DNA from: a virus
Lineage: Duplodnaviria > Heunggongvirae > Uroviricota > Caudoviricetes
Direction: 5' to 3' (one strand)
DNA length: 9,562 nucleotides
IMG/VR virus record: IMGVR_UViG_2617271044_000001
How positions within the stretch are numbered: position 1 is the first letter of the stretch; each line of letters begins with the position of its first letter. Both the position numbers and the translations under genes were made by a program. The notes under the pieces were generated by a model. That model was not told the origin of the DNA and ran no database searches. It worked only from the letters and a program-made list of their open reading frames with translations. Positions 356 through 9,218 of the stretch are shown piece after piece.

Positions 356-689
356 GAAAAATCCCCCAGAGAATTGTCTGGGGACATTTTAGAATGGTTC
401 AAAGGGGACATTACAGCTTGGTGTTAACAATAGCCTGCTTCTCCTTGCCTTTCGGCACGTAAGAGGCTAACCTACATGTGTCCGGCATGAAATTGGCCTC
501 AGATTAATGTTAAGCGTCTTGCAGGACGCGTAATGTTAACTGGGGCTTTTCTCTACCTGCCGTTGGTGTTCGTGCCCGAGGCAGATAGCCTCAAGCACCC
601 GCAGTCATTCTACTTAACTAAGATTTCCCCGCAAACCGTTTTTGTCCAGCACAGTAAATATCCAACTAAACCAATGGAGTTCGCTGTAT

Positions 690-2021: not shown

Positions 2022-2378
2022 TTAAAAAATCAGAACGCCGTGCGGCCTCAACACCCGAAAAGCTTCTTTAAATCTCTGTCGCAAATCATCACGCCAGGCA
2101 TCTTTATTCAGCCGTCCATATTTCTTTCCCATCCAGGCGTTATCACCAACACGCTCAAGATGCGGAGGGTCTAATACAACCATCGAAAAAGATGCGTCTG
2201 CAAATGATAATGCACGAAAATCTGCGATAATGTCAGGGCTGATAATCAAGCGTCTCCCATTGCGTAATGTGTATCCTTCTTTTCTGATATCGCTGAATAT
2301 CGCCCGTTTGTCAGACTTATCGAACCAGAACATGCGGCTGCCACAGCACATATCAAGAATGGTTGCCGGTGCACTCAC
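2022..2378 (-). CDS. SAM-dependent methyltransferase-like protein (DNA N6-adenine/N4-cytosine type motifs), short at 118 aa and possibly truncated
   Basis: Track ORF 2022..2378. The start codon is GTG (plus 2376-2378 = cac), overlapping the upstream stop as GTGA. Motif I-like LDMCCGSR near the N-terminus and a motif IV-like VVLDPPH about 60 residues later. No room for a target-recognition domain, so it is either an unusually small enzyme or a remnant. Confidence 0.55.
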   Translation of the reverse strand: MSAPATILDMCCGSRMFWFDKSDKRAIFSDIRKEGYTLRNGRRLIISPDIIADFRALSFADASFSMVVLDPPHLERVGDNAWMGKKYGRLNKDAWRDDLRQRFKEAFRVLRPHGVLIF

Positions 2379-2797
2379 TGCGCCACGTCCTGAAAATTAC
2401 CCTGATAGAAAGCCAGTATGCGCTGCATAACTTCGCTCTTCCGGCACTCGCGACAGATTATGTTTAGGCGACTGTCGTAGCGACGTATTTCTCCGTCAGG
2501 TGATGACCAGATAAGGTCCGGATCAACCACAGCAGGTTTCTTCACCTTTGCCCTCGAGAGTTTTTTGCGGGCGTTTTGCCAGTCCTTACGCGCCTGTTCA
2601 GAGGGGAATAACCCGTAGCCGGAGTTGTATACATCGCCACTGGCTACCAGCTCTCTGGCAAGAACGCTCATCAGATATCTAGTCGCACCTGTTTTAGCTT
2701 CCAGTTGCCGTAACGTCTCACGGCCGCTCTGGCGCACGAGTTCCACCACCTGCCATTTAATTTTTTCCCGCTCTTCTTGTGTAAAAACTTTTGCCAC
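2375..2797 (-). CDS. Hypothetical phage early protein, 140 aa, with a helix-turn-helix-like segment
   Basis: Track ORF 2375..2797. GTG start (plus 2795-2797 = cac) with a GGGGGA Shine-Dalgarno about 5 nt upstream on the minus strand. Its stop TGA overlaps the GTG of the methyltransferase-like ORF, implying translational coupling. Segment RETLRQLEAKTGATRYLMSVLARELVASGDV looks HTH-like. Confidence 0.55.
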   Translation of the reverse strand: MAKVFTQEEREKIKWQVVELVRQSGRETLRQLEAKTGATRYLMSVLARELVASGDVYNSGYGLFPSEQARKDWQNARKKLSRAKVKKPAVVDPDLIWSSPDGEIRRYDSRLNIICRECRKSEVMQRILAFYQGNFQDVAQ

Positions 2798-2837: not shown

Positions 2838-3803
2838 TTATCCTCTGAAACCAGGCGGAATTTCTGTATCCGGTTCAGAAATATGATTAACACAACGCTG
2901 TACAGGTGAACGTCCCAGGCGGATGACCAGTTCGTCCCATTTTTCGCGGAGCTTTGACGGGCTCATGATGTTTTTTACCCAGAATGGATCTCGCTGAACC
3001 CGACCAAACATTTCGCAAATTTGTCTGTGGCTTCTGCCATCCAGCATCCGCATTGTGCGCACGTCATTGGCCCAGGCAGTCCAGTTAGGCTCTTTTGGTC
3101 GCATGATCTCGCCATCATCACTGGCTGCCTGTTCGTAGAGACCCACGATCCGCCCCCAGATCCACTGCGCACACGCCAAATCCTCCCTGCTACCCCACTG
3201 GCGTTTTTTCGCACTAAACACAACCGCGTCGGAGTTCCGGGTTAAAGAATCCTGTTCAGTCGTCTGCGGGTCCGGTTGCGAAGCTTCCGGACGAAAAGTG
3301 TTTTTATTCTCTGTAGTAATCTCTGTTGTATTCTCTGTAAGATCATCAGGCCATTTTGACCCGATGACATTGGGTCGTTTTGAACCAATGGAGCGTTTCA
3401 TTTTGACCTCTTCCATCGTGTCATTTTGACCTGATGGAGCGGCGCATTTTGAACCGATGGATTCGCTCAATTTGCCACCATCTAAAAGCTCGCTCCCATA
3501 GTTGATCGTGTAGAAATTGGTCATATCGCGCTTTGATTTATTGAGCTTTTCACAACGCAAAAGCCCCAGCGTTTTCAGACTTGCAAACGCGCGCTTTAAC
3601 GTTGACTCTGACCAGAATGGGAACTGTTCCAGCCATTGTTCCGTTGTGTTATAAATCCAGCGAACACCATCACATTCCATGCCGGAGTTGGTATCTCTCA
3701 ACCAGTAGTGCAGTTGTTGCAAAACAATGGCTTCGTTTAAGCCAATTTTCATTGCCAGCTGCGTGTTTATAACCAGTGGGCGTTCAGCAAAAAGAAGGCT
3801 CAT
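2838..3803 (-). CDS. Phage replication initiator protein, lambda O-like, with origin iterons embedded in its coding sequence
   Basis: Track ORF 2838..3857 (TTG at 3857). The more plausible start is ATG at 3803..3801, giving MSLLFAERPLVINTQLAMKIGLNEAIVLQQLHYWL..., about 322 aa. The mid-gene DNA repeats translate to repeated peptide motifs (SIGSK three times, TENTTEITTEN), the hallmark organisation of lambda O and ori-lambda. The start overlaps the last 20 nt of the upstream 173-aa gene. Confidence 0.7.
   Translation of the reverse strand: MSLLFAERPLVINTQLAMKIGLNEAIVLQQLHYWLRDTNSGMECDGVRWIYNTTEQWLEQFPFWSESTLKRAFASLKTLGLLRCEKLNKSKRDMTNFYTINYGSELLDGGKLSESIGSKCAAPSGQNDTMEEVKMKRSIGSKRPNVIGSKWPDDLTENTTEITTENKNTFRPEASQPDPQTTEQDSLTRNSDAVVFSAKKRQWGSREDLACAQWIWGRIVGLYEQAASDDGEIMRPKEPNWTAWANDVRTMRMLDGRSHRQICEMFGRVQRDPFWVKNIMSPSKLREKWDELVIRLGRSPVQRCVNHISEPDTEIPPGFRG
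3309..3480. repeat. Putative phage origin of replication: three tandem 12-bp repeats followed by five to six iterons at 23-24 bp spacing
   Basis: Direct reading: ctctgtagtaat / ctctgttgtatt / ctctgtaagatc at 3309-3344, then cattttgaMC-type repeats starting at 3352, about 3376, 3399, 3422 and 3445, with a degenerate copy near 3468. An AT-rich stretch (3296-3310) flanks them. Confidence 0.65.
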
Positions 3804-4305
3804 AATTCCATCCAGCTTTTTGTTGGTATTGCTGTCGATACGCAAGCTTGAAAGCAATTGCTTTTTCTATAAGTTCGTCAGTTTCACGATCCACTACGGC
3901 AGGATCAGCAAAAAGCAGTCCGGACTCCACCACATCGCCATATTCTTTGTTTAACCCGGCGATCATGCACGTGATGCTTTTTCCGTCAGTAATTTCACGA
4001 TACAACCTGAAATCACTAATCCGGATAGCCTCCATAATCGCAGGCACTAGCGCCGTGAACTTTTCACGCTTATCCCTGGTGTCGATAGCCTTCCAGCGTT
4101 CGAATATCTTCACTCGATTAACACCAAGCGCTCGCTGATCAACCGCGCCACCTTCATCTGTGACACGCTGAACATCGATGTTCGGGCGCTCTTTCAAAGC
4201 CCAGAATGCTTCAGTGATTAATATCGTCGCCTGCTCCTGTGTCATTCCTGGTCGACATATCCAGGCATCCAGAGCCTCACGAGCCTGTTCAGGAGTGATT
4301 TTCAT
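3784..4305 (-). CDS. 173-aa early protein between cro-like and replication genes; possibly a YdaT/CII-like regulator (tentative)
   Basis: Track ORF 3784..4305 with ATG at 4305..4303. Its 5' end overlaps the dicC stop by 17 nt and its 3' end is overlapped by the replication gene start, so it is tightly packed in the operon. Protein begins MKITPEQAREALDAWICRPGMTQEQ.... Product assignment is by position and weak remembered similarity only. Confidence 0.55.
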   Translation of the reverse strand: MKITPEQAREALDAWICRPGMTQEQATILITEAFWALKERPNIDVQRVTDEGGAVDQRALGVNRVKIFERWKAIDTRDKREKFTALVPAIMEAIRISDFRLYREITDGKSITCMIAGLNKEYGDVVESGLLFADPAVVDRETDELIEKAIAFKLAYRQQYQQKAGWNYEPSFC

Positions 4306-4519
4306 TGTTCAACCACCCCGCCCGCTTCGTCTTACGATATTCATCATAAACTTTGGGATCATACTGAAGCTCCCCGCCAGATGCCTCCTGTAGACGCATC
4401 GCGCGACCTTCGGGAACTAAATCCCCTTTCCAGCTATAAAGCGAAGCCAAACGAATACCTGCTGCTTGTGCAAGTTTTGTTTTTGAACCGAAATACAAAA
4501 GAGCGTCAGTTTTAAGCAT
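4289..4519 (-). CDS. dicC: Cro-like small DNA-binding regulator (DicC-type)
   Basis: Track ORF, 76 aa, ATG at 4519..4517 with an AGGTG-like Shine-Dalgarno upstream. Transcribed divergently from the repressor gene. The segment GSKTKLAQAAGIRLASLYSWK is a P22-Cro/YdaS-type HTH. Length and genomic context match DicC of the Qin prophage as I recall it. Confidence 0.75.
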   Translation of the reverse strand: MLKTDALLYFGSKTKLAQAAGIRLASLYSWKGDLVPEGRAMRLQEASGGELQYDPKVYDEYRKTKRAGWLNNENHS

Positions 4520-4602
4520 TTAAAACACCTTTATTGTTAGTCATAACTAACAAGATAGATGTTAACAAAAACATAGTCAATACGATTTAGCATTAGCTAA
4601 CT
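4520..4602. promoter_or_regulatory. Divergent promoter/operator region of the dicC/dicA immunity switch
   Basis: 83-bp AT-rich intergenic region between divergent Cro-like and repressor genes. It contains the near-perfect 20-bp palindrome TTGTTAGTcataACTAACAA (4534-4553, 8-bp perfect arms) and the 8-bp palindrome TTAGCTAA (4594-4601, ending 1 nt before the dicA ATG). Exact -35/-10 boxes were not resolved. Confidence 0.55.
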
Positions 4603-6050: not shown

Positions 6051-6103
6051 TTTCTGGTGACGTTTGGCGGTATCAGTTTTACTCCGTGACTGCTCTGCCG
6101 CCC
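6051..6103 (+). ncRNA. dicF: DicF small regulatory RNA (53 nt), 3' end at a terminator-like GC stem plus T-run
   Basis: tttctggtgacgtttggcggtatcagttttactccgtgactgctctgccgccc followed by ttttt (6104-6108). This matches the DicF sequence as I remember it, and sits where dicF lies in the operon, between ydfC and dicB. It is preceded by about 340 nt with no ORF and extensive stem potential. Confidence 0.7.
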
Positions 6104-6277: not shown

Positions 6278-6466
6278 ATGAAAACGTTATTACCAAACGT
6301 TAATACGTCTGAAGGTTGTTTTGAAATTGGTGTCACTATCAGTAACCCAGTATTTACTGAAGATGCCATTAACAAGAGAAAACAAGAACGGGAGCTATTA
6401 AATAAAATATGCATTGTTTCAATGCTGGCTCGTTTACGTCTGATGCCAAAAGGATGTGCACAATGA
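6278..6466 (+). CDS. dicB: Cell-division inhibitor DicB-like protein, 62 aa
   Basis: ATG at 6278 with GAGGA about 7 nt upstream, in frame with track ORF 6173..6466. Protein MKTLLPNVNTSEGCFEIGVTISNPVFTEDAINKRKQERELLNKICIVSMLARLRLMPKGCAQ. Size, position after dicF and sequence fit DicB. Confidence 0.8.
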   Translation: MKTLLPNVNTSEGCFEIGVTISNPVFTEDAINKRKQERELLNKICIVSMLARLRLMPKGCAQ

Positions 6467-6654: not shown

Positions 6655-6746
6655 AACAGTTCCGTAATAAATATCCGGTTTCATTCTTATATGCCAGCAA
6701 TGGCAGGGATTTGTTCATCCTTAAATCTGTCATGAGGTTAAAACAA

Positions 6747-9218
6747 ATGAGTAAAGTCTTTATTTGCGCCGCTATTCCTGACGAACTGGCAACAAGGGAA
6801 GAAGGCGCTGTGGCTGTAGCCACAGCCATTGAAGCTGGCGACGAACGCCGTGCTCGAGCAAAATTTCACTGGCAATTCCTGGAACATTATCCGGCTGCTC
6901 AGGACTGCGCTTATAAATTTATTGTCTGCGAGGATAAACCTGGCATACCCCGCCCTGCCCTCGATTCATGGGATGCTGAATATATGCAGGAAAACCGCTG
7001 GGATGAGGAGTCTGCTTCTTTTGTCCCGGTTGAGACTGAATCCGATCCGATGAACGTCACTTTTGACAAGCTGGCCCCTGAAGTACAGAACGCTGTCATG
7101 GTTAAGTTCGACACATGTGAAAACATCACCGTTGATATGGTTATTAGCGCACAGGAATTGTTGCAGGAAGACATGGCAACATTCGACGGACATATCGTTG
7201 AAGCGTTGATGAAAATGCCAGAAGTTAACGCCATGTATCCGGAGCTTAAGTTGCACGCCATTGGGTGGGTTAAGCATAAATGTATTCCTGGTGCTAAATG
7301 GCCCGAAATTCAGGCAGAGATGCGCATCTGGAAAAAACGTCGCGAAGGTGAACGCAAGGAAACCGGAAAATACACGTCTGTTGTTGATCTCGCCCGCGCC
7401 AGAGCCAATCAACAGTACACTGAAAATTCAACAGGAAAAATCAGCCCGGTCATTGCTGCCATTCATCGCGAATACAAGCAGACATGGAAAACACTGGATG
7501 ACGAACTGGCCTACGCTCTCTGGCCTGGTGATGTGGATGCCGGAAACATTGACGGCAGCATCCATCGCCGGGCAAAAAATGAAGTTATCGACAACGACCG
7601 CGAAGACTGGAAGCGTATCTCGGCATCAATGCGCAAACAGCCTGATGCCCTTCGCTACGACCGCCAAACTATTTTTGGCCTTGTCCGTGAGCGTCCGATC
7701 GACATTCACAAAGATCCCGTAGCACTGAACAAATATATCTGCGAATACCTGACGACAAAGGGCGTGTTTGAGAATGAAGAAACAGACCTGGGCACTGTTG
7801 ATGTTCTCCAGTCATCAGAAACACAAACTGATGCAGTGGAAACTGAGGTATCTGATATCCCAAAAAATGAAACCGCGCCGGAAGCTGAACCATCTGTAGA
7901 GCGTGAGGGGCCGTTCTATTTCCTCTTCGCAGATAAGGACGGAGAAAAATACGGTCGCGCAAACAAACTTTCTGGTCTGGATAAGGCACTGGCTGCTGGC
8001 GCCACTGAAATCACAAAAGAAGAATATTTTGCCCGAAAAAATGGCACATACACGGGCTTACCGCAAAATGTAGATACCGCTGAAGATTCAGAACAACCAG
8101 AGCCGATAAAAGTTACCGCTGACGAAGTAAACAAAATTATGCAGGCAGCCAATATCATCCAGCCTGACGCCGATAAGTTGCTTGCTGCATCACGTGGTGA
8201 ATTTGTTGAAGGGATTAGTGACCCGAATGATCCGAAATGGGTTAAGGGGATCCAGACCCGCGATTCTGTGAACCAGAACCAGCATGAATCGGAACGGAAC
8301 TACCAAAAAGCGGAACAAAACAGCCCAAATGCGTTACAAAACGAGCCAGAAACGAAACAGCCTGAATCAGTGGCGCAACAGGAAGTGGAAAAAGTCTGCA
8401 CCGCCTGCGGTCAGACCGGCGGCGGCAACTGCCCTGATTGTGGCGCGGTAATGGGCGACGCAACATACCAGGAAACATTCGATGAAGAGTATCAGGTTGA
8501 AGTTCAGGAAGATGATCCGGAGGAAATGGAAGGCGCTGAACATCCACACAAGGAGAACACTGGCGGCAATCAGCATCACGATAGCGATAATGAAACTGGC
8601 GAGACGGCAGATCACTCAATTAAGGTGAACGGTCATCAAGAAATCACATCCACCAGCAGGACGTGTGACCATCTAATGATCGACCTTGAAACCATGGGAA
8701 AAAATCCTGATGCCCCGATCATCTCAATAGGTGCAATATTTTTCGATCCGCAAACCGGAGATATGGGACCGGAATTTAGTAAGACTATCGATCTGGAAAC
8801 TGCTGGCGGAGTCATTGATCGGGACACCATTAAATGGTGGCTTAAGCAATCACGCGAAGCGCAATCTGCCATTATGACCGATGAAATCCCGTTAGATGAT
8901 GCACTGTTACAATTGCGGGAATTTATCGACGAAAACTCCGGTGAATTTTTTGTTCAGGTCTGGGGAAATGGAGCCAACTTCGACAACACGATTTTGCGCC
9001 GTTCATACGAACGGCAGGGGATCCCCTGCCCGTGGCGTTACTACAACGATCGCGATGTACGCACAATCGTTGAGCTGGGGAAAGCCATAGACTTCGATGC
9101 CAGAACGGCTATTCCATTCGAAGGTGAGCGCCATAATGCACTTGATGACGCCCGTTACCAGGCAAAATACGTTTCAGTTATCTGGCAAAAACTGATCCCG
9201 AGTCAGGCTGATTCTTAA
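6747..9218 (+). CDS. Large prophage protein (~823 aa): N-terminal ~550 aa of unknown function, CxxC-x7-CxxC zinc-ribbon motif, acidic linker, C-terminal DnaQ-like DEDDh 3'-5' exonuclease domain
   Basis: Track ORF 6711..9218 begins at a TTG. ATG at 6747 with GAGG 8 nt upstream is the likelier start (MSKVFICAAIPDELATREEG...). Exonuclease motifs seen directly: MIDLETMG (Exo I, D-x-E), VWGNGANFDN (Exo II), HNALDDARYQAKY (Exo III, H-x4-D). Zinc ribbon CTACGQTGGGNCPDCG is encoded from 8397 to about 8444, followed by an E/D-rich stretch. It occupies the position of ydfE in the dicB operon. Confidence 0.8.
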   Translation: MSKVFICAAIPDELATREEGAVAVATAIEAGDERRARAKFHWQFLEHYPAAQDCAYKFIVCEDKPGIPRPALDSWDAEYMQENRWDEESASFVPVETESDPMNVTFDKLAPEVQNAVMVKFDTCENITVDMVISAQELLQEDMATFDGHIVEALMKMPEVNAMYPELKLHAIGWVKHKCIPGAKWPEIQAEMRIWKKRREGERKETGKYTSVVDLARARANQQYTENSTGKISPVIAAIHREYKQTWKTLDDELAYALWPGDVDAGNIDGSIHRRAKNEVIDNDREDWKRISASMRKQPDALRYDRQTIFGLVRERPIDIHKDPVALNKYICEYLTTKGVFENEETDLGTVDVLQSSETQTDAVETEVSDIPKNETAPEAEPSVEREGPFYFLFADKDGEKYGRANKLSGLDKALAAGATEITKEEYFARKNGTYTGLPQNVDTAEDSEQPEPIKVTADEVNKIMQAANIIQPDADKLLAASRGEFVEGISDPNDPKWVKGIQTRDSVNQNQHESERNYQKAEQNSPNALQNEPETKQPESVAQQEVEKVCTACGQTGGGNCPDCGAVMGDATYQETFDEEYQVEVQEDDPEEMEGAEHPHKENTGGNQHHDSDNETGETADHSIKVNGHQEITSTSRTCDHLMIDLETMGKNPDAPIISIGAIFFDPQTGDMGPEFSKTIDLETAGGVIDRDTIKWWLKQSREAQSAIMTDEIPLDDALLQLREFIDENSGEFFVQVWGNGANFDNTILRRSYERQGIPCPWRYYNDRDVRTIVELGKAIDFDARTAIPFEGERHNALDDARYQAKYVSVIWQKLIPSQADS

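What the first reader, a model, noticed from the sequence alone, without database searches (positions are those of the whole stretch)
3309..3480. Origin-like iteron array embedded in the replication initiator gene
Three tandem 12-bp repeats (3309-3344) and five to six cattttgaMC-type iterons at a regular 23-24 bp period (3352-3480) lie in the middle of the O-like gene and are translated into repeated peptide motifs. This mirrors ori-lambda inside gene O, where the initiator binds iterons in its own coding sequence next to an AT-rich unwinding region. The array defines the likely replication origin and specificity determinant of this prophage.
Basis: partly seen in the sequence, partly recalled or inferred. 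Interest (0 to 1): 0.5.

Follow-up and report, generated by a model that had tools for sequence, protein, structure and literature searches.

The report
Prophage replication origin inside initiator gene
The repeats are real and are very probably the replication origin of a common Qin-like E. coli prophage, built on the phage lambda plan (initiator-binding repeats plus an opening region inside the initiator's own gene) but using a different, unannotated DNA-binding domain and a strikingly conserved 12-base element.

Summary
On the minus strand, a 321-aa O-like initiator gene (3803..2838) contains five strong 23-bp repeats and one degenerate repeat (3345-3483; spacing 23/23/23/24). Three tandem 12-mers, ACAGAGAwTACw, follow at 3303-3338. 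The periodicity is far beyond chance (z = 11.7 against codon shuffles), and the repeat occurs nowhere else in the 48.7-kb phage genome.

The repeats fall in all three reading frames, so selection acts on the DNA and not on the peptide. Each repeat is an imperfect 21-bp dyad. Relatives in Enterobacterales, Pseudomonas, Acinetobacter, Campylobacterales and Firmicutes carry the same architecture: N-domain, then 21-24-bp iterons, then the 12-mers, then a variable C-domain. The iteron sequence changes with the N-domain lineage.

The 12-mer block is nearly invariant, including at synonymous sites (ACA 97/98, GAG 96/98). It is therefore a sequence-specific DNA element and more than an AT-rich tract.

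The C-domain is lambda-O-like. The N-domain is not PF04492. No P-like loader gene follows, and the last 21 residues copy the tail of E. coli DnaT.

Verdict: a lambda-type origin, supported by comparison only and with no experiment. It is a new variant of a known kind, of moderate interest.

The parts
2838..3803 (-). O-like replication initiator gene (321 aa, ATG at 3803, stop at 2838-2840)
   Evidence: ORF and translation. phrog_391 'replication initiation O-like', E 5.6e-91. The same CDS is annotated 'DNA replication protein O' in phage PhiR42_1, 99.8% identical.
3489..3803 (-). N-terminal domain (aa 1-105), the presumed iteron-binding winged-helix-like domain; no Pfam family
   Evidence: No Pfam hit. 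It is 43-78% identical to the N-domains of initiators in the nine aligned phages of Klebsiella, Pantoea, Erwinia, Pseudomonas, Acinetobacter, Geobacillus, Staphylococcus and Escherichia. The low-confidence model has the order H-H-E-H-H-E-E. hhalign against the lambda O N-domain gives probability 0.05%.
3461..3483 (-). Iteron slot 1, degenerate in this window (AGATGGTGGCAAATTGAGCGAAT)
   Evidence: It lies in register 23 bp upstream of iteron 2. Relatives hold a good copy here, AGATGAGGTCAAAGTGACC.
3438..3460 (-). Iteron 2, CCATCGGTTCAAAATGCGCCGCT
3415..3437 (-). Iteron 3, CCATCAGGTCAAAATGACACGAT
3392..3414 (-). Iteron 4, GGAAGAGGTCAAAATGAAACGCT
3369..3391 (-). Iteron 5, CCATTGGTTCAAAACGACCCAAT
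3345..3367 (-). Iteron 6, TCATCGGGTCAAAATGGCCTGAT, the copy nearest the 12-mer block
3297..3344 (-). Low-stability, purine-rich block holding three tandem 12-mers ACAGAGAwTACw (3327-3338, 3315-3326, 3303-3314); presumed unwinding and helicase-entry element and a mosaic junction
   Evidence: GC 0.31 and sense-strand purine 0.65. It is the 8th least stable 40-mer of the window, in the top 1.3%. Nucleotide identity to five Gram-negative relatives is 83-97%, against 48-70% for the N-domain coding region. Synonymous sites are fixed.
2916..3197 (-). C-terminal folded domain, homologous to the lambda O C-terminal domain
   Evidence: BLASTP against lambda O: 34% identity over aa 147-294, E 5e-26. phrog_2357 and phrog_277 hits. 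Helices at aa 206-295 in the model.
2841..2903 (-). C-terminal tail (aa 301-321, VQRCVNHISEPDTEIPPGFRG), matching the last 21 residues of E. coli DnaT
   Evidence: PDB chains 2ru8, 6aep and 9zbt (DnaT) align at their C-termini. NCBIfam NF002770 positions 160-179 match, at 16.3 bits against a cutoff of 201.
4552..4580 (-). pR-like promoter candidate upstream of cro-like (4519..4289), cII/YdaT-like (4305..3784) and the initiator gene; its transcription would cross the origin
   Evidence: Consensus scan, 9 of 12 matches. Gene identities. It is a consensus match only.

Best explanation
This is the vegetative replication origin of a Qin-like lambdoid prophage, and it lies inside the gene of its own initiator.

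Inferred mechanism:
1. Transcription from the pR-like promoter expresses the Cro-like, cII-like and initiator genes.
2. Dimers of the initiator's N-terminal winged-helix-like domain bind the five or six 21-bp dyad iterons (consensus ATCrGGTCAAAATGAcCyGAT). The iterons are spaced 23 bp apart, and binding builds an O-some-like nucleoprotein complex.
3. The stress of that complex, on supercoiled and transcribed DNA, opens the adjacent 3x12-bp ACAGAGAwTACw block.
4. The C-terminal part of the protein then brings in host DnaB helicase. That part is a lambda-O-like domain plus a DnaT-like tail. No phage P-type loader gene is present.

Shown: the anatomy, its statistical significance, selection at the DNA level, conservation of the architecture, and the domain homologies. 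Inferred: binding, opening, helicase recruitment and origin activity.
For: - Real, unique array. z = 11.7 against codon shuffles. Only the five iterons score above 20 bits in the window and in the whole 48.7-kb PhiR42_1 genome, where the next best site scores 16.
- DNA-level selection. Iterons occupy fixed slots that fall in all three reading frames. The encoded residues 108-202 are modelled as unstructured.
- Dyad symmetry. 63% complementarity about position 13, against at most 40% at other centres. Core information content is 1.5-2 bits.
- Same layout as ori-lambda. The array sits at mid-gene, with iterons followed by a low-stability, purine-rich block. Lambda iteron spacing is 20/24/23.
- Conservation. 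The best lag is 21-24 bp in 68 of 78 genome loci picked by N-domain protein alone. 65 of 78 also carry the 12-mer. 91 of 115 viral loci picked by the 12-mer alone have a 23-bp array upstream.
- Specificity. 40 N-domain clusters each have their own iteron consensus at constant spacing. In close relatives the iterons are 81% identical, against 70% for the N-domain coding DNA.
- The 12-mer is under synonymous-site constraint. ACA is used 97/98 times and GAG 96/98 times, against 25% and 45% elsewhere in the same genes.
- Protein identity. phrog_391 O-like hit. C-domain homologous to lambda O. Homologues in Staphylococcus and Geobacillus phages sit directly upstream of helicase-loader and DnaB-like genes.
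- A 99.8% identical gene lies in phage PhiR42_1, whose record gives E. coli ECOR13 as host.
Against: - There is no experimental evidence for any member of this N-domain family: no binding, no unwinding, no autonomous replication.
- The N-domain is not detectably related to lambda O's PF04492, so binding specificity rests on analogy.
- The structural model is of low confidence, mean pLDDT 50.9.
- The correlation between N-domain identity and iteron similarity (rho 0.90) is also expected from shared descent alone.
- The position-weight-matrix uniqueness test was trained on the same five sites.
- In GC-rich hosts the 12-mers are not especially AT-rich, so simple 'AT-rich melting' may not be their role.
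- A subset of short Neobacillus homologues lacks both arrays.
Confidence: 0.85

Rival explanations
1. The repeats exist because the protein needs a repetitive linker peptide (IGSK and TENTTEITTEN motifs). On this reading the DNA periodicity is a by-product of peptide repeats and not a binding-site array.
For: IGSK occurs three times, and TE(N/I)TTE is conserved as a peptide in many homologues. The 12-mer is almost always read in the same frame, 154 of 161 hits.
Against: The 23-bp period is not a multiple of 3, and iteron slots fall in frames 0, 1 and 2, giving unrelated peptides (SGQN, EVKM, IGSK). Within TExT peptides the synonymous positions are fixed, ACA 97/98 and GAG 96/98, against 25% and 45% elsewhere. 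The region is modelled as disordered.
Confidence: 0.03
2. The array does bind the initiator, but it acts as a regulatory or incompatibility element (autoregulation, titration or handcuffing). Replication would start at another site.
For: Iterons in plasmids also serve copy-number control. No experiment locates the initiation site here.
Against: No second iteron cluster exists in the 48.7-kb phage genome. The array is joined to a low-stability conserved block exactly as in ori-lambda. The architecture is kept across phyla next to helicase and loader genes.
Confidence: 0.06
3. The 12-mer block is kept mainly as a recombination junction that allows N-domain-plus-iteron modules to be exchanged between different C-terminal domains. 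It would not be the unwinding element. This reading is compatible with the iterons being the origin.
For: The block is the only stretch shared at 97% with the Stx-phage O genes. Similarity to Klebsiella ST147phi7.2 drops from 91% in the block to 38% further downstream, where the C-domain changes to Phg_2220_C. C-domains differ among homologues: lambda-O-like, Phg_2220_C and DnaD-like. The lambda record itself marks recombination points in the equivalent region.
Against: A junction needs only local identity between exchanging partners. It does not need a tandem 12-mer kept from Firmicutes to Proteobacteria at a fixed distance from the last iteron. The two roles do not exclude each other.
Confidence: 0.2
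4. The conserved purine-rich 12-mers act at the RNA level. The pR transcript would form a stable R-loop there (purine-rich RNA on a pyrimidine-rich template), and that R-loop would open the origin. This would be a sequence-specified form of lambda's 'transcriptional activation'.
For: Sense-strand purine content is 0.65, against 0.55 for the whole gene, and lambda's AT-rich block is also purine-rich at 0.68. The origin lies inside the early rightward operon. Synonymous constraint fits an RNA-level as well as a DNA-level role. Lambda-type origins depend to different degrees on transcriptional activation (PMC7466680).
Against: There is no direct evidence. Purine richness alone would not require the exact motif ACAGAGAwTAC.
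Confidence: 0.1

Closest known systems
ori-lambda inside gene O of phage lambda (O protein, four 19-bp iterons plus an AT-rich tract)
   Same: The origin is embedded at mid-gene between the initiator's N- and C-domains. The iterons are dyad-symmetric and spaced about 23 bp apart (lambda 20/24/23). In the direction of pR transcription they are followed by a purine-rich, low-GC block. The C-terminal domain is homologous (34% identity, E 5e-26) (PMC7466680).
   Different: The N-terminal DNA-binding domain is not PF04492 and is not detectably similar. The iteron sequence differs (GGTCAAAATG core against TCCCTCAAAACGAGGGA). There are five or six copies, not four. The opening region is a conserved 3x12-bp motif rather than a generic A-rich tract. 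No P gene follows. The protein carries a DnaT-like tail.
Origins of the Stx phages 933W and P27 (lambda-type O, six iterons)
   Same: There are six iteron slots, with the distal ones weaker or degenerate. The origin lies inside O (PMC7466680).
   Different: Those phages have a lambda-family O and P. This element belongs to a different N-domain family. Another Stx-phage O type (Stx2_14040, L012) shares only the 12-mer block, at 97%.
Initiators annotated as 'DnaD-like helicase loader' or replication initiation protein in Firmicute phages (Staphylococcus phage 96 ORF015, Geobacillus phage NIIg9.7 gp46)
   Same: The N-domain is homologous (49-52% identity). Iterons with the nearly identical core GGACAAAATGGC lie just after it at 22-bp spacing, followed by ACAGAGAyTAC.
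   Different: The C-domain is DnaB_2/DnaD-type, not lambda-O-type. These genes are followed by dedicated helicase-loader and DnaB-like genes. They have fewer iterons (3) and no DnaT-like tail.
The three tandem 13-mers of the E. coli oriC DNA-unwinding element (comparison from general knowledge)
   Same: Both have three tandem short repeats of 12-13 bp, beside an array of initiator sites, in a low-stability stretch.
   Different: The sequences are unrelated. This block lies inside a coding sequence. The comparison is an analogy recalled from textbook knowledge and was not tested here.
E. coli DnaT (primosomal protein I)
   Same: The last 21 residues are nearly identical (SEPDTEIPPGFRG against SEPDSQIPPGFRG).
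   Different: Only the tail matches. The NCBIfam DnaT score is 16.3 bits against a cutoff of 201. The protein is not a DnaT homologue overall.

Membership tests
Lambda-type phage origin embedded in the initiator gene | Array of at least 3-4 direct repeats, each an imperfect inverted repeat, about two helical turns apart | tested here: met
   Five strong copies plus one degenerate copy at 23/23/23/23/24 bp. Dyad complementarity is 63% at the centre.
Lambda-type phage origin embedded in the initiator gene | Located inside the initiator's coding sequence, between the DNA-binding N-domain and the C-domain | tested here: met
   The array spans codons 107-167 of 321. Folded regions lie at aa 14-101 and 206-295, with an unstructured stretch between them.
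Lambda-type phage origin embedded in the initiator gene | Low-stability (AT-rich) region directly downstream of the iterons in the direction of transcription | tested here: met
   At 3297-3344, GC is 0.31 and the 40-mer free energy is -45.6 kcal/mol, against a window mean of -55.1 (top 1.3%). The order is the same as in lambda.
Lambda-type phage origin embedded in the initiator gene | The initiator protein binds the iterons | not testable with these tools
   Only indirect support: the iteron consensus changes with the N-domain lineage at constant spacing.
Lambda-type phage origin embedded in the initiator gene | The segment supports initiator-dependent replication | not testable with these tools
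   No experiment was found for this family in the searched literature.
Lambda-type phage origin embedded in the initiator gene | Lies in the early rightward operon, so that transcription crosses the origin | tested here: inconclusive
   The gene order cro-like, cII-like, initiator on one strand fits, as does a 9/12 promoter-like site at 4580-4552. That site is a consensus match only.
Lambda O protein family (Pfam PF04492 Phage_rep_O, N-terminal domain) | N-terminal domain matches PF04492 | tested here: not met
   Lambda O hits PF04492 at E 5.7e-36 and the window protein has no Pfam hit. hhalign gives probability 0.05%. The only link is the broad phrog_678, at 8.6e-9.
Lambda O protein family (Pfam PF04492 Phage_rep_O, N-terminal domain) | C-terminal domain homologous to the lambda O C-terminal (P-interacting) domain | tested here: met
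   BLASTP E 5e-26 with 34% identity over aa 147-294. phrog_2357 hit at E 1.8e-46.
Lambda O protein family (Pfam PF04492 Phage_rep_O, N-terminal domain) | Cognate P-type helicase-loader gene immediately downstream | tested here: not met
   The downstream genes are a DUF977/Ren-like gene and a small methyltransferase-like gene. No helicase or loader is annotated anywhere in the PhiR42_1 genome.
PHROG 391 'replication initiation O-like' | Full-length profile match | tested here: met
   E 5.6e-91, residues 17-321 on profile positions 11-298 of 298.
DnaT (NCBIfam NF002770) | Whole-protein score above the curated cutoff | tested here: not met
   16.3 bits against a cutoff of 201. Only profile positions 160-179, the C-terminal tail, match.
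Rac prophage oriJ / YdaU (DUF1376) replicon | Initiator homologous to YdaU, with the same repeat architecture | tested here: not met
   YdaU has a different sequence, no 23-bp array (best lag 12, 47/90) and no ACAGAGAnTAC. It shares only the PPGFRG tail.

The most novel reading that the evidence does not exclude
The tandem ACAGAGAwTACw 12-mers would be a sequence-specific origin-opening element shared by a very large family of phage initiators that has no Pfam family and is mostly annotated as 'hypothetical protein'. The element would be conserved from Firmicutes to Proteobacteria, independent of iteron specificity, C-terminal domain and host GC content. It would be recognised as DNA or as an R-loop by a conserved feature of these initiators or of the bacterial replisome. 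In the loader-less enterobacterial members, a copied DnaT tail would plug the origin complex into the host primosome in place of a lambda P protein.
Probability: 0.3. Interest if true: 0.65.

Novelty: new variant of a known kind. Interest (0 to 1): 0.45.

Why it matters
The segment is present in 1956 of 5426 complete E. coli genomes, and the gene is almost always annotated 'hypothetical protein'. Recognising it gives several practical results:
- It supplies the replication origin and initiator of one of the commonest E. coli prophage types.
- It gives a simple rule (N-domain, then 23-bp iterons, then ACAGAGAwTAC repeats) that locates origins in hundreds of phages across phyla.
- It provides a natural series of initiator/iteron specificity pairs at fixed geometry, suitable for studying how initiators recognise DNA.

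The synonymous-site-fixed 12-mer suggests that origin opening in these phages depends on a defined sequence and not only on AT-richness. That can be tested by synonymous recoding.

Phage origins of this layout are also what the Lamassu defence system senses in lambda (PMC12663957). Mapping origins therefore matters for phage-defence work.

Tried and rejected
- Structure. The job with close homologues gave a low-confidence model, mean pLDDT 50.9. I ran no fold search and use only the ordered/disordered pattern.
- Literature. Searches for the 12-mer and for its peptide strings returned noise or nothing. The Weigel and Seitz review of phage replication modules is not held. More general searches found only lambda and Stx origin work.
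- DnaT. The preprimosome paper says nothing about the C-terminal tail, beyond stating that the way DnaT recruits DnaB/DnaC is unknown.
- Rac oriJ/YdaU. I examined it as a possible experimentally validated relative. It is a different family.
- N-domain against iteron similarity. The correlation (rho 0.90) is reported but not used as proof of co-evolution, because shared descent predicts the same result.
- DnaT-like tail and absence of a downstream ATPase. The association is only a trend: 1 of 27 against 22 of 118, p = 0.08, with a crude Walker-A proxy. Rac YdaU has the tail and also a DnaC-like neighbour.
- Position-weight-matrix uniqueness. This test is circular for the five training sites. 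It shows only that no other cluster exists.
- Rfam. No RNA family overlaps the region.
Full report
**Observation**

The window contains an ORF on the minus strand, 3803..2838, of 321 aa. Its best profile match is PHROG 391, 'replication initiation O-like', at E 5.6e-91, and it has no Pfam match. A 99.8% identical gene in Escherichia phage PhiR42_1 (host recorded as ECOR13) is annotated 'DNA replication protein O'.

Tandem Repeats Finder and the repeat finder both report a 12-bp tandem repeat at about 3305-3340. They also report a 23-bp repeat family starting at 3344, 3368, 3391, 3414 and 3437. The plus-strand core CATTTTGAMC occurs five times in phase between 3352 and 3454.

Read in register on the gene's sense strand, the parts are as follows:
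- five iterons at 3438-3460, 3415-3437, 3392-3414, 3369-3391 and 3345-3367
- a degenerate sixth copy at 3461-3483
- three 12-mers ACAGAGAwTACw at 3327-3338, 3315-3326 and 3303-3314

The periodicity is far from chance. The best 90-nt self-match is 58/90 at lag 23, against a mean of 38.1, sd 1.7 and maximum 47 in 2000 codon shuffles of the gene, so z = 11.7. A matrix built from the five copies finds no other site above 16 bits in the window or in the whole 48.7-kb PhiR42_1 genome. So there is a single cluster.

**DNA or peptide?**

Three copies do give IGSK. Because the period is 23-24 bp, the slots fall in all three frames, and the other copies are read as SGQN and EVKM. The repeat is therefore maintained as DNA.

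The AlphaFold model is of low confidence overall, with mean pLDDT 50.9. Its pattern is still informative. There are two helical or mixed regions, at aa 14-101 and 206-295. They are separated by about 95 residues without secondary structure (108-202), and this stretch is what the iterons and 12-mers encode. A tolerant linker is the obvious place to embed DNA signals.

**Anatomy of the iteron**

I collected 55 copies from 11 genomes whose N-domains are 67-100% identical. They give the consensus cCATCAGGTCAAAATGAaccGaT. The core carries 1.5-2 bits per position and the flanks 0.3-0.9 bits. Dyad symmetry is clear, with 63% complementarity about position 13 and at most 40% at any other centre.

This is the same design as lambda's 19-bp imperfect inverted-repeat iterons, which are bound by O (PMC7466680). 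It fits binding by a dimer.

**Layout compared with lambda**

In lambda the iterons start at codon 116 of O, with spacing 20/24/23. In the direction of transcription they are followed by a purine-rich, low-GC tract. Here the iterons start at codon 107 and are followed by the 12-mer block. That block has the following properties:
- GC is 0.31, and sense-strand purine content is 0.65, against 0.68 for lambda's tract.
- It is the 8th least stable 40-mer of the window, at -45.6 kcal/mol against a mean of -55.1, which puts it in the top 1.3%.

The protein's residues 147-294 are 34% identical to the lambda O C-terminal domain, E 5e-26. The gene follows Cro-like and cII/YdaT-like genes on the same strand, downstream of a promoter-like site. 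DicF RNA at 6052-6103 and the Ydf-type neighbours identify a Qin-like lambdoid prophage.

**Comparative test**

Three independent samples address it.

1. Ten phages chosen by gene or N-domain similarity. The phages of Klebsiella, Pantoea, Erwinia and Escherichia, a Stx2 phage and SopranoGao have a 23- or 24-bp lag as the best self-match at the same gene position. In the Pseudomonas phage lag 23 ranks second, after a 12-nt lag. Staphylococcus phage 96 shows lag 22 and the Geobacillus phage only weakly.
2. 78 usable genome loci, one genome per species, chosen only by two N-domain peptide patterns. 68 have a best lag of 21-24 bp (23 bp in 41 of them). 65 carry ACAGAGAnTAC with at most 1 mismatch downstream, and 154 of 161 hits are in the same frame.
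3. At least 120 viral contigs chosen only by two adjacent 12-mers. 118 place the motif inside an ORF of about 300 aa, typically about 140-200 codons from the upstream end of the open frame. In 91 of 115 the best lag in the 150 nt upstream is 23.

Across the viral set there are 40 N-domain clusters at 70% identity or more. Each has its own iteron consensus, for example GGTCAAAATG, GGGCAAATTGC, GGGAAAACC or TGGCGGAAAGCGCCA. The spacing stays at 23 bp (249 intervals), 24 bp (47) or 46 bp (22).

All copies within an array change together from lineage to lineage, as expected for sites that track one binding protein. The numerical correlation between N-domain identity and iteron similarity (rho 0.90) is also what descent alone predicts, so I do not count it as independent proof.

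**The 12-mer block is a conserved sequence and more than an AT-rich tract**

It is the best conserved DNA in the gene. Identity to the five Gram-negative relatives compared is 83-97%, including a Stx-phage O gene that shares nothing else. The N-domain coding region shows 48-70% identity.

I defined the motif at the peptide level, as TExT within aa 110-230 of genes picked by N-domain only. The first Thr codon is ACA in 97 of 98 cases and Glu is GAG in 96 of 98. In the rest of the same genes ACA makes up 25% of Thr codons and GAG 45% of Glu codons (Fisher 1e-40 and 8e-30). The sequences are related, so these p-values overstate independence. At 50-75% protein identity, however, synonymous sites should be randomised.

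In the Pseudomonas phage the 12-mers are kept even though they are not AT-rich there.

My reading is that this block is the origin's opening or helicase-entry element and is specified by sequence. It also coincides with the point where different C-terminal domains are joined: lambda-O-like here, Phg_2220_C in Klebsiella ST147phi7.2, and DnaD-like in Staphylococcus and Geobacillus phages. A role as a module-exchange junction is therefore a real alternative, and the two roles are not exclusive. An RNA or R-loop role is a third possibility.

**What it is not**

- The N-domain is not the lambda O domain. Lambda O hits PF04492 at E 5.7e-36, the window protein hits nothing, and hhalign gives probability 0.05%. 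Only the broad PHROG 678 touches both.
- No P-like, DnaC-like or DnaB-like gene follows. The next genes are a DUF977/Ren-like gene and a small methyltransferase-like gene. None is annotated anywhere in PhiR42_1.
- The protein is not DnaT, although its last 21 residues copy DnaT's C-terminus.
- It is not related to Rac's YdaU/oriJ replicon.

**Mechanism**

Shown: the anatomy, DNA-level selection, conservation, and the domain homologies.

Inferred, by analogy with lambda (PMC7466680):
1. N-domain dimers fill the iterons and distort the DNA.
2. The adjacent 12-mer block opens on supercoiled, transcribed DNA.
3. The C-terminal part recruits host DnaB.

How the helicase is recruited without a P protein is open. 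The DnaT-like tail is a lead. The way DnaT itself recruits DnaB/DnaC is still unknown (PMC13377028).

**Novelty and interest**

The principle, an origin inside the initiator gene with iterons followed by an opening region, is textbook for lambda and the Stx phages. This member is specific in four ways:
- a different N-domain family without a Pfam model
- a 12-mer element fixed at synonymous sites and shared across phyla
- no phage-encoded loader
- a DnaT tail

I found no description of it in the searchable literature. A key review could not be read. The gene is labelled 'hypothetical protein' in most of the 1956 of 5426 complete E. coli genomes that carry the segment.

I rate it a new variant of a known kind, with interest 0.45.

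Noticed in passing
window 2841-2903 (minus strand; aa 301-321 of the initiator): The C-terminal tail VQRCVNHISEPDTEIPPGFRG is nearly identical to the last 21 residues of E. coli DnaT (PDB 2ru8, 6aep, 9zbt; NCBIfam NF002770 positions 160-179). Relatives with unrelated C-domains end in the same P-x-GFR[GS], and so does Rac YdaU. Initiators with the tail tend to lack a downstream Walker-A ATPase gene (1 of 27 against 22 of 118, p = 0.08, crude proxy). This may be mimicry of a host primosome contact.
   Followed up: partly
window 2022-2797 (minus strand), and the whole PhiR42_1 genome (L013): No P-, DnaC- or DnaB-like gene follows the initiator. The next genes are a DUF977/'Ren-like' gene (2797..2375) and a small methyltransferase-like ORF (2378..2022). 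The replication module appears to be 'initiator only'.
   Followed up: partly
window about 8270-8380 (plus strand), inside ORF 6711-9218 (RecE/exonuclease VIII-like): A second periodic stretch, 56/90 self-match at lag 21 (gaaccagaaccag...cggaacggaac...gcggaacaaaac...). It was not analysed further.
   Followed up: no
window 6052-6103 (+) and 429-600 (-): Rfam hits to DicF sRNA (76.7 bits) and sok antitoxin RNA (98.7 bits). Together with the Ydf-type genes these mark a Qin-like prophage that carries a hok/sok module.
   Followed up: no
window 6282-6306: A 13-bp tandem repeat, AAACGTTAATACC x1.9 (TRF score 43), about 180 bp downstream of DicF. Its significance is unknown.
   Followed up: no
window 3461-3483: The outermost iteron slot is degenerate in this prophage (GGTGGCAAATTGAGC). 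In Klebsiella, Enterobacter and mEp460_4F5 relatives it is a good copy (GAGGTCAAAGTGACC). This recalls the weakly bound distal iterons of Stx phages.
   Followed up: partly
L179, L183, L188, L189, L194, L204, L209, L212 (Neobacillus and Bacillus genome loci): Short homologues (about 227-246 aa) of the N-domain family lack both the 21-24-bp array and the 12-mers. Their origin, if they have one, must lie elsewhere or be built differently.
   Followed up: no
proteins P0001, P0002, P0004: Some database entries are 448-aa proteins that carry a YdaT (PF06254) domain and are 99-100% identical to the initiator over about 99% of the query. They are probably fused or mis-called cII-like plus initiator ORFs. 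The two genes overlap at 3784-3803 in the window.
   Followed up: no
E. coli genome search with window 3290-3500: The origin segment occurs in 1956 of 5426 complete E. coli genomes, up to 4 places per genome and 4 places on plasmids. RefSeq labels the gene 'hypothetical protein' in nearly all listed cases.
   Followed up: partly
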